From Blastocystis sp. Blastoise (Eukaryota; Protista; Bigyra: Opalinata), in assembly GCA_039096225.1 (NCBI GenBank), contig JBBPEB010000014.1, positions 372,001 to 436,000 on the forward strand: a stretch of 64,000 nucleotides of DNA. The letters are read 5' to 3'. Position 1 is the first letter of the stretch. Every line of letters begins with the position of its first letter. Shown one piece after another: positions 54,504-55,833 of the stretch. The translations under genes and the position numbers were made by a program. The notes beneath the pieces are model-generated. The model made no database searches. It was not told the origin of the DNA and worked only from the letters and a program-made list of their open reading frames with translations.

Positions 54504-55833
54504 ATGGGTAGAACTGGACAATTTGTTGTTGGACCTGCTGGAACAGGAAAGTCATCTTATTGCAAAGCGATGAAAGATTATTGTGAGTCAAGTAATAGAC
54601 GAACATACGTAATTAATCTTGATCCAGCTGCTGAAGACCTTGCATATGATTGTGACTTAGATATTCGTGACTTAATTTCATTGAATGATGCTCTGGAAGA
54701 AATGAATTTAGGTCCTAATGGCGGTCTTGTTTTTTGTATTGAATATTTCTTTTGTTTATTTTATTTATTGTTTGATGTAATTTGTTTTTTTATATAGATA
54801 TTTATGTAATAATATTGAGTGGTTAGCTGATGAAATTGCTGAATTTGATGAAGATGGATTTTTCATTTTTGATTGTCCAGGTCAAATTGAATTATTTACT
54901 CATTTTACATATATGAGAGATATAGCTAAGAAATTAACAGATAATGGATTCCGTCTATGTTCAGTCTATCTTGTATATATTATTATGTTTATTATTATTA
55001 TAATTATTATGTTTATTATGATTATTATAATTATTATGATTATGTTTATAATAATTATTATTATTATGATTATTATTATTATGAATATATATATATATAT
55101 ATACAGATGGATGCTCCCTTCGTATCTGATGAGTTTAAGTATATATCTGGATCTCTCATGGGATTAACTACTATGTTACAGATGGAACTACCTCATGTTA
55201 ATGTATATATATATATATATATATATATATATATATATATATATATATATATATATATATATATATATATATATATATATATATATATATATATATATAG
55301 GTATTAACTAAATGTGATATGGTTGATCAAGAAAAAATTGATAAATATATATATATATATATATATATAAGAATCATTCTAGGAAAATTGTGAAATATAT
55401 ATTTATACACAATATATTCTTATATATATATATAACTTTCTTTATATAGATATATATTCCCTGATGGATTGGCTTTAGCCACAAAATTATCTCAATATTT
55501 TGGTGGTATATATATAATTATATATAATTATTTTTATAGTCTACTATATCTTATATATATATATAGATTCACCTTTTGCGAATTTACATACAGCGATGGC
55601 AGATTTAGTATATACATATAAAGCAAAGAATAACATATTCTCTATGTATATAGTTGGATGATTTTAGTATGGTTGCATTCTTAGAATTCAGTATATATGA
55701 CGAAGATAAAATAGCAAATGTGCTACTTCAAACAGATATTATTGTTCAATACGGAGAAGATCTTGATGTTCCTGACACGATTCCTGGAGAAGAACAAGAA
55801 GAACCTGATGAACCTGAAGGAGAATATTGTTAA
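54504..55833 (+). CDS. GPN3: GPN-loop GTPase 3, multi-exon
   Basis: [50 protein letters not shown] and VQYGED. Confidence 0.92.
55203..55300 (+). repeat. Intron made purely of GT(AT)47AG
   Basis: Removal joins the conserved PHVN and VLTKCD of GPN3. Confidence 0.92.

What the first reader, a model, noticed from the sequence alone, without database searches (positions are those of the whole stretch)
54743..54797. Non-canonical AT-AG intron fixed by GPN3 conservation
Exon 1 ends TGT ATT GA and exon 2 begins A TAT TTA TGT AAT, giving [17 protein letters not shown], which matches the conserved segment after the GPN loop. This requires a 55-nt intron ATATTTCTTT...TATATAG with an AT donor and AG acceptor. 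The nearby GTATTG donor is out of frame. The only in-frame GT nearby (GTTTGA at 54770) would insert 9 hydrophobic residues into a conserved helix. The donor is not in a TA array, so a repeat artefact is unlikely. It could be a decayed U12 donor (ATATCCTTT to ATATTTCTTT) or the local GTAT donor with G+1 changed to A. Together with four further candidates, this suggests a spliceosome tolerant of +1A (inference).
Basis: partly seen in the sequence, partly recalled or inferred. Interest (0 to 1): 0.78.

Follow-up and report, generated by a model that had tools for sequence, protein, structure and literature searches.

The report
Assembly error mimicking AT-AG intron
A 55-base intron really is cut out of this gut protist's GPN3 message, but its odd first letter (A instead of G) is likely a genome-polishing error copied from the next exon, so it is probably an ordinary intron and not a sign of an unusual splicing machine.

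Summary
The intron is real; the AT donor is probably not. The gene is GPN3 of a tortoise Blastocystis. However, the intron and exon 2 both begin ATATTT, and the gene's second AT-AG intron (55345) shares 8 bases with its next exon. Of 105 modelled introns whose next exon does not start with G, both with 5 or more matches after +1 have lost G, while 100 of 103 with fewer keep it. Five matches is where an unspliced BWA-MEM alignment of a spliced read would run through a +1 mismatch. The matching GenBank assembly was polished with BWA-based tools. Two other eukaryotes have an intron at exactly this position, both GT-AG. Best reading: GTATTT overwritten to ATATTT during polishing (0.8; about 0.9 that the genomic base is G). 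No DNA read covering 54743 was seen, so this is inferred. Three other predicted non-GT donors do not fit the rule. No earlier scan note describes this.

The parts
54504..54742 (+). GPN3 exon 1 (start codon to the first two bases of the Glu codon after the GPN loop)
   Evidence: 100% identity to P0001 over 97% of the query, PF03029; RNA contigs end here
54743..54797 (+). Intron 1, 55 nt, phase 2; assembled as AT-AG, likely GT-AG in the cell
   Evidence: Skipped in RNA contigs of two studies; same position holds GT-AG introns in L009 and L016
54743..54743 (+). The disputed +1 base: A in the assembly, equal to the first base of exon 2; inferred to be G
   Evidence: Sequence; overwrite simulation 30 of 30 overhang lengths; no DNA read seen
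54743..54748 (+). First copy of the 6-nt junction repeat ATATTT (intron start)
54798..54803 (+). Second copy of ATATTT (start of exon 2, conserved Glu-Tyr-Leu codons)
54798..54972 (+). GPN3 exon 2
   Evidence: RNA contigs cover 54798-54965, the end of the stretch laid; alignment
54736..54826 (+). GT-AG intron implied by GenBank model P0001; removes conserved residues and is not what RNA shows
   Evidence: P0001 matches the 54736-54826 join; lowest homologue scores of three models
54973..55106 (+). Intron 2, GT-AG; next exon starts with A but only 1 match after +1, G kept
   Evidence: gene model; not RNA-bridged here
55203..55300 (+). Intron 3, GT-AG; next exon starts with G
   Evidence: gene model
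55345..55449 (+). Intron 4, assembled as AT-AG; first 8 bases equal the first 8 of the next exon; same inferred overwrite
   Evidence: gene model; P0002 and P0003 have no insertion here; not RNA-bridged; donor lies at a TA run
55506..55566 (+). Intron 5, GT-AG; next exon starts with A, 1 match after +1, G kept
55608..55653 (+). Intron 6, GT-AG; next exon starts with T, 1 match after +1, G kept
55654..55833 (+). Last exon to the stop codon; the six-intron model gives an open frame of 276 residues

Best explanation
The 55-nt segment is spliced out of the GPN3 message and is likely an ordinary major-spliceosome GT-AG intron whose first G was likely overwritten with A while the genome was polished. 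Shown: the junction, the 6-nt identity of intron start and exon-2 start, and GT-AG introns at this position in two other eukaryotes. Inferred mechanism: spliced RNA reads were aligned to the draft with an unspliced aligner. A read crossing the junction carries ATATTT where the genome had GTATTT; one mismatch followed by five matches scores above zero, so the alignment runs six bases into the intron before being clipped. Nearly all such reads vote A and few reads vote G, so the polisher replaces G with A. In the cell, U2-type splicing would use the common local donor GTATTT and the TATAG acceptor.
For: (1) Step pattern: among 105 of 136 modelled introns whose next exon does not start with G, 2 of 2 with 5 or more matches after +1 lack G and 100 of 103 with 4 or fewer keep it (Fisher P 0.002). 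(2) With +1 set to G, a BWA-like extension carries a difference into the intron at 30 of 30 overhang lengths for exactly these two donors, and at most 9 of 30 for all 130 donors that have G. (3) Shuffling exon starts predicts 1.4 such vulnerable donors in the window; two are seen, both non-G. Exact repeats of 6 or more are expected 0.08 times, P(2 or more) 0.002. (4) Two acceptors show the mirror image: 13- and 8-nt copies of the exon-1 end with a rare purine at -3 (expected 0.28, P 0.007). (5) With G the donor is GTATTT, found 14 times among 129 GT-AG donors. (6) L009 (GTAAGT..CAG) and L016 (GTAAAT..TAG) carry the intron at the same codon position. [quoted passage not shown] (8) POLCA uses BWA-MEM and changes a base given 2 supporting reads and a 2:1 ratio (10.1101/2024.03.07.584013, passages). 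(9) +1A inhibited splicing in fission-yeast tests (PMC4299874, passages).
Against: No DNA read over 54743 was seen. The Methods name Illumina DNA for Polypolish and do not say RNA was given to POLCA; no POLCA script was found in the 12 supplements held. The positive class is two introns of one gene, and I formed the idea after seeing both. Only 4 of the 136 introns are RNA-confirmed, three of them in my training set, and some others are false. Finding 0 unconverted vulnerable junction sides against 1.7 expected is not significant (P 0.10). Four other modelled non-G donors have only 0-1 matches: 32696 vanished on re-prediction, 30398 (A) and 62676 (T) still equal the next exon's first base, 5974 (A before C) does not. 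The acceptor cases rest on guessed original bases; one of two distinct guesses for 13850 failed. BWA default scores are recalled. That the window comes from this GenBank assembly is inferred from P0001.
Confidence: 0.8

Rival explanations
1. The genomic base is G but the A arose another way: a Nanopore consensus error, or DNA reads from an intronless allele or retrocopy aligned across the junction. The biology is the same ordinary GT-AG intron.
For: Long-read assembly of a 23% GC genome (PMC12129017); the donor at 5974 looks like an error at a TA array; the strains are reported as diploid.
Against: Random errors would not pick the only two donors that match the next exon. An intronless allele would supply about half the reads, short of POLCA's 2:1 rule.
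Confidence: 0.09
2. The A is genomic and the major spliceosome of this lineage removes AT-AG introns efficiently.
For: The assembly reads A; RNA shows only the spliced form; AT donors are used at low rank in human cells (PMC6280755, passages); Blastocystis ST1 has 59 GA-AG introns (PMC5608401 section 8); 30398 and 5974 are AT donors without a long repeat.
Against: Does not explain why both well-supported AT donors copy the next exon (about 1e-4 for two independent donors), nor the T donor at 62676 or the acceptor-side copies. Human non-canonical donors needed enhancers and occur mostly at weakly used junctions. ST1's curated intron classes list no AT-AG. +1A opposite a last G blocks splicing steps in fungi.
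Confidence: 0.07
3. It is a minor-spliceosome (U12) intron with AT-AG ends and a decayed donor.
For: Blastocystis keeps the minor spliceosome and hundreds of mostly AT-AC introns; the window has a candidate AT-AC intron with ATATCCTT at 53301.
Against: The donor differs from ATATCCTT at +5, +6 and +7; the intron has one C in all, so no CCTTAAC-type branch site (consensus recalled); the acceptor is the window's usual ATAG (91 of 136); introns at this position elsewhere start GTAAGT and GTAAAT; the second case is a plain TATAT donor.
Confidence: 0.03
4. A recently inserted non-conventional intron with a target-site duplication, or a reverse-transcriptase template switch between the 6-nt repeats.
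For: A direct repeat flanks the junction.
Against: The position is shared with two distant eukaryotes; the intron has no fold (z -0.01); unspliced RNA would stop in frame at 54795-54797; both libraries give only the joined form.
Confidence: 0.01

Closest known systems
Major (U2-type) GT-AG intron of Blastocystis (98.3% of ST1 introns, PMC5608401 section 8)
   Same: Bases +2 to +6 (TATTT) and the TATAG end match the window's common sites; the same position is GT-AG in L009 and L016.
   Different: The assembly shows A at +1; 55 nt rather than the 30 nt typical of human subtypes, in line with longer tortoise-isolate introns (PMC12129017, passages).
Over-correction by short-read polishers (POLCA: BWA-MEM plus FreeBayes; 10.1101/2024.03.07.584013)
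   Same: The change sits exactly where an unspliced alignment would pass a mismatch.
   Different: The paper describes DNA polishing of bacteria. Two searches found no paper that, by title or abstract start, describes splice sites overwritten by RNA reads; none of the 8 listed was opened.
U12-type AT-AC and non-canonical minor introns (PMC10639083, passages)
   Same: AT start; the genus has the machinery.
   Different: No TATCCTT, no C-containing branch site, AG end; 'AT-AG' does not occur in that paper's main text.
AU 5' splice site of Aspergillus telomerase RNA (PMC4299874, passages)
   Same: A at intron +1 with a major spliceosome.
   Different: There +1A stops splicing after the first step; here the exons are joined, which argues against a real A.
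GPN-loop GTPase 3 (PF03029)
   Same: GPN motif, 72-76% identity of exon 1 to other Blastocystis GPN proteins, further hits named GPN3.
   Different: Nothing unusual once spliced as the RNA shows; GenBank model P0001 is wrong at both AT-AG sites.

Membership tests
U2-type GT-AG intron | Removed from mature RNA | tested here: met
   RNA contigs of 2 of 4 runs laid, two studies
U2-type GT-AG intron | G at +1 in genomic DNA | tested here: inconclusive
   Assembly shows A; no DNA found (no genome held; 0 of 28 metagenome loci are this species); overwrite signature favours G
U2-type GT-AG intron | Local donor consensus at +2 onward | tested here: met
   TATTT at +2..+6 in 14 of 129 GT-AG donors; score at or above 29 of 129
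U2-type GT-AG intron | YAG acceptor | tested here: met
   TATAG; ATAG ends 91 of 136 modelled introns
U2-type GT-AG intron | Introns at the same position elsewhere are U2-type | tested here: met
   L009 and L016, 2 of 28 loci; 5 loci were read base by base, the rest only by tblastn blocks
U12-type intron | 5' site RTATCCTT (recalled consensus) | tested here: not met
   ATATTTCT; not among the 11 RTATCCTY matches in the window
U12-type intron | CCTTAAC-type branch site near the 3' end (recalled consensus) | tested here: not met
   The intron's only C is at +7
U12-type intron | Dependence on U11/U12/U6atac | not testable with these tools
   No snRNA in the window (0 Rfam matches); no genome held
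Non-conventional or introner-type intron | Paired ends or terminal inverted repeats | tested here: not met
   -1.1 kcal/mol, z -0.01
Non-conventional or introner-type intron | Lineage-specific new position | tested here: not met
   Position shared with L009 and L016
Polishing overwrite by spliced reads | Changed base equals the first base of the next exon and is followed by 5 or more matches | tested here: met
   54743 (5 matches) and 55345 (7 matches)
Polishing overwrite by spliced reads | No unconverted vulnerable sites remain | tested here: inconclusive
   0 of 272 junction sides, 1.7 expected, P 0.10
Polishing overwrite by spliced reads | RNA reads were given to the polisher | tested here: inconclusive
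   Suggested by one Results sentence and the contig suffix, not stated in Methods
GPN-loop GTPase 3 | PF03029 domain with GPN motif and GPN3-named nearest relatives | tested here: met

The most novel reading that the evidence does not exclude
Tortoise Blastocystis really carries constitutive AT-AG (and perhaps TT-AG) introns in housekeeping genes, and its major spliceosome accepts a non-G first base when the intron start copies the start of the next exon, so that exon sequence stands in for the usual first-to-last-base check.
Probability: 0.07. Interest if true: 0.75.

Novelty: not a real feature. Interest (0 to 1): 0.12.

Why it matters
As an artefact it is a useful warning. About 1 in 100 donors has the vulnerable layout (1.4 of 136 expected), so expressed genes across this assembly may carry overwritten splice sites, and surveys of non-canonical introns would count them as biology. 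It already broke one public gene model: P0001 lacks 12 residues after the GPN loop and gains 11 intron-derived ones further on, in line with an annotation script that bars non-canonical junctions (supplement code; meaning of the STAR option recalled). If the A were real, efficient removal of an AT-AG intron from a conserved housekeeping gene would challenge the proposed first-to-last guanosine pairing of the second splicing step.

Tried and rejected
No whole genome was held, so genome-wide junction counts and the snRNA and Prp8 checks could not be run. The one run search (kind rna) listed 5 runs and no DNA holder; X3 and X4 did not cover GPN3 and X5 was never laid. A second read-laying over a wider stretch returned nothing, so intron 4 and the other non-GT candidates lack RNA confirmation. 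The metagenome scan gave 28 loci, none from this species. P0001 has no cluster mates. Rfam: 0 matches in the window. A re-prediction with milder penalties produced many implausible micro-exons and antisense genes (115 of 191 introns shared with round 1) and split intron 4; I used it only to see which candidates were stable. The 54770 donor was rejected (lowest score against 129 donors; absent from RNA; lower homologue scores), as was the GenBank 54736-54826 intron. All seven slid boundaries were checked and none is canonical. I could not build a clean overwrite story for 5974. Three look-ups of earlier scan notes returned nothing on introns. The Pfam scan of exon pieces failed on a frame slip and was not repeated. 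The paper's genome and annotation archives were too large to read; they could show junction patterns genome-wide.

Full report
Observation. Window 54743-54797 is a 55-nt AT-rich segment starting ATATTTCTTT and ending TATATAG. It splits the Glu codon after the GPN loop of a GPN-loop GTPase. Exon 1 is 100% identical over 97% of its length to GenBank protein P0001 of 'Blastocystis sp. Blastoise', and 72-76% to other Blastocystis GPN proteins; further hits are named GPN3. The two exons align back to back against 6 of 6 homologues from other strains or species. RNA contigs from runs X1 and X2 (two studies; 2 of 4 runs laid) end at 54742 and resume at 54798 with contiguous record coordinates and no other letters (table 8). 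Three neighbouring junctions in the same call are GT-AG. The in-frame GT at 54770 is not seen in RNA and scores below all 129 modelled GT-AG donors. The GenBank model, which uses 54736-54826, is contradicted by RNA and scores lowest against four homologues.

What RNA cannot show. cDNA does not contain the intron's first base. The letter at 54743 therefore had to be judged indirectly.

The clue. The intron and exon 2 both begin ATATTT, so the junction can slide over seven positions, none canonical. GPN3 has a second AT-AG intron, 55345-55449, whose first eight bases equal those of the next exon; P0002 and P0003 have no insertion there, but it is not RNA-bridged here and lies at a TA run. The gene's four other introns keep GT; three are followed by a non-G base with only one match after +1, the fourth by G.

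Window-wide test. I wrote a small gene model and predicted 136 introns in 20 intron-bearing genes that I judged real by eye (antisense and very short predictions dropped). It recovered all four RNA-confirmed junctions, three of which were in its training set; the target intron was not. Some predictions are false, for example 55691-55735. Donors are strongly GTAT (122 of 136). Among 105 introns whose next exon does not start with G, G is kept in 100 of 103 with 0-4 matches after +1 and lost in 2 of 2 with 5 or more (Fisher P 0.002). Shuffling exon starts predicts 1.4 donors of that vulnerable layout, and 0.08 exact repeats of six or more when +1 is G (P of two, 0.002). An AT donor unrelated to its exon would match six bases 1.0% of the time. 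No junction side of 272 still has a mismatch that an extension would cross, against 1.7 expected; alone this is not significant (P 0.10).

Mechanism. With BWA-MEM default scores (match 1, mismatch 4, clip 5; recalled), one mismatch and five matches give a net gain, so every spliced read anchored in exon 1 would be extended into the intron. In a simulation with +1 set to G, only the two GPN3 donors received a difference at 30 of 30 overhang lengths; the 130 donors with G received at most 9. POLCA aligns with BWA-MEM and rewrites a base with two supporting reads and a 2:1 ratio (10.1101/2024.03.07.584013, passages). The paper on these genomes (PMC12129017: outline, passages, section 5, first part of section 12, supplement searches; preprint passages) reports Flye, racon, three Polypolish rounds with Illumina DNA and one POLCA round with 'short reads'. 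[quoted passage not shown] RNA input to POLCA is not stated, and no POLCA script was found. GPN3 had the highest contig depth in the stretch laid, but the tool warns that this cannot rank genes. Two acceptors show the mirror signature, 13- and 8-nt copies of the exon-1 end with CGAG and TAAG ends (0.28 expected, P 0.007); these are model-only and need guessed original bases.

Evolutionary check. Two of the 28 fetched loci, L009 and L016 (53% and 45% identity), have an intron at the same codon position, starting GTAAGT and GTAAAT and ending AG, with the next exon starting ATATCT. The position is thus shared and U2-type, and the repeat is a coincidence of the conserved Glu-Tyr-Leu codons with this lineage's GTATTT donor (14 of 129 donors).

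Rivals. U12: Blastocystis has the minor spliceosome (PMC5608401 section 8; PMC10639083 passages) and the window holds a good AT-AC candidate at 53301 with ATATCCTT, but the target lacks TATCC and has a single C. True +1A tolerance: AT donors are used weakly and with enhancer help in human cells (PMC6280755 passages), and ST1 has 59 GA-AG introns; but +1A inhibited splicing in fission yeast and stops it after step one in Aspergillus telomerase RNA (PMC4299874 passages), and tolerance does not explain the copying of the next exon. Structure-based or inserted intron: no fold (z -0.01) and a shared position.

Against my reading. Four other modelled non-G donors lack the long match. One vanished on re-prediction; 30398 (A) and 62676 (T, once the acceptor moved to 62811) still equal the next exon's first base, which short-overhang reads could cause; 5974 (A before C, at a TA array) is unexplained. 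None has RNA support. The positive class is two sites in one gene, seen before the test was framed. A second read-laying gave no data.

Verdict. The intron is real and probably ordinary. Probability that the genomic base is G is about 0.9, with overwriting by spliced reads the likeliest cause (0.8). Searches for a paper on this artefact listed none by title or abstract start, and earlier scan notes had nothing on it. Interest 0.12; 0.75 if DNA reads show A (probability 0.07).

Noticed in passing
window 53301-53389 (+): Candidate genuine U12-type AT-AC intron (donor ATATCCTTAA, TTCTTTAAT upstream of the AC end) in a long multi-exon gene that looks DENN-like (label recalled, not from a call); removing it gives an open frame. 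Not bridged by RNA.
   Followed up: partly
window 17167-17011 and 13911-13850 (-): Modelled introns whose last 13 and 8 bases copy the end of the upstream exon, giving rare CGAG and TAAG acceptors; likely the acceptor-side form of the same overwrite.
   Followed up: partly
window 62676-62811 (+): Modelled TT-AG intron in an ABC-transporter-like gene; the T equals the first base of the next exon. The sequence around the acceptor is unusually GC-rich for this genome.
   Followed up: partly
window 30398-30295 (-) and 5974-6151 (+): Further modelled AT-AG introns without a long junction repeat; 30398 matches the next exon's first base, 5974 does not and borders a 58-nt TA array.
   Followed up: partly
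GenBank protein P0001 vs window 54504-55833: The public model is wrong at both AT-AG sites: it lacks 12 residues after the GPN loop and includes 11 residues read from intron 4.
   Followed up: yes
whole window: Donor consensus is GTAT (122 of 136; GTATAT 76) and acceptor ATAG (91 of 136), unlike the usual GTAAGT; many introns are TA arrays running from donor to acceptor. U1 of this lineage may be adapted to it (untested).
   Followed up: no
window 40192-42006 (-) and 42442-44097 (+): An intronless ORF that reads as a triosephosphate isomerase-GAPDH fusion sits head to head with a phosphoglycerate kinase-like gene (labels from reading the translations, not from a family search).
   Followed up: no
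window 21730-24351 (+): Transposase-like frame (hAT-like by recall) interrupted by a 465-nt TTA array that the model treats as an intron.
   Followed up: no
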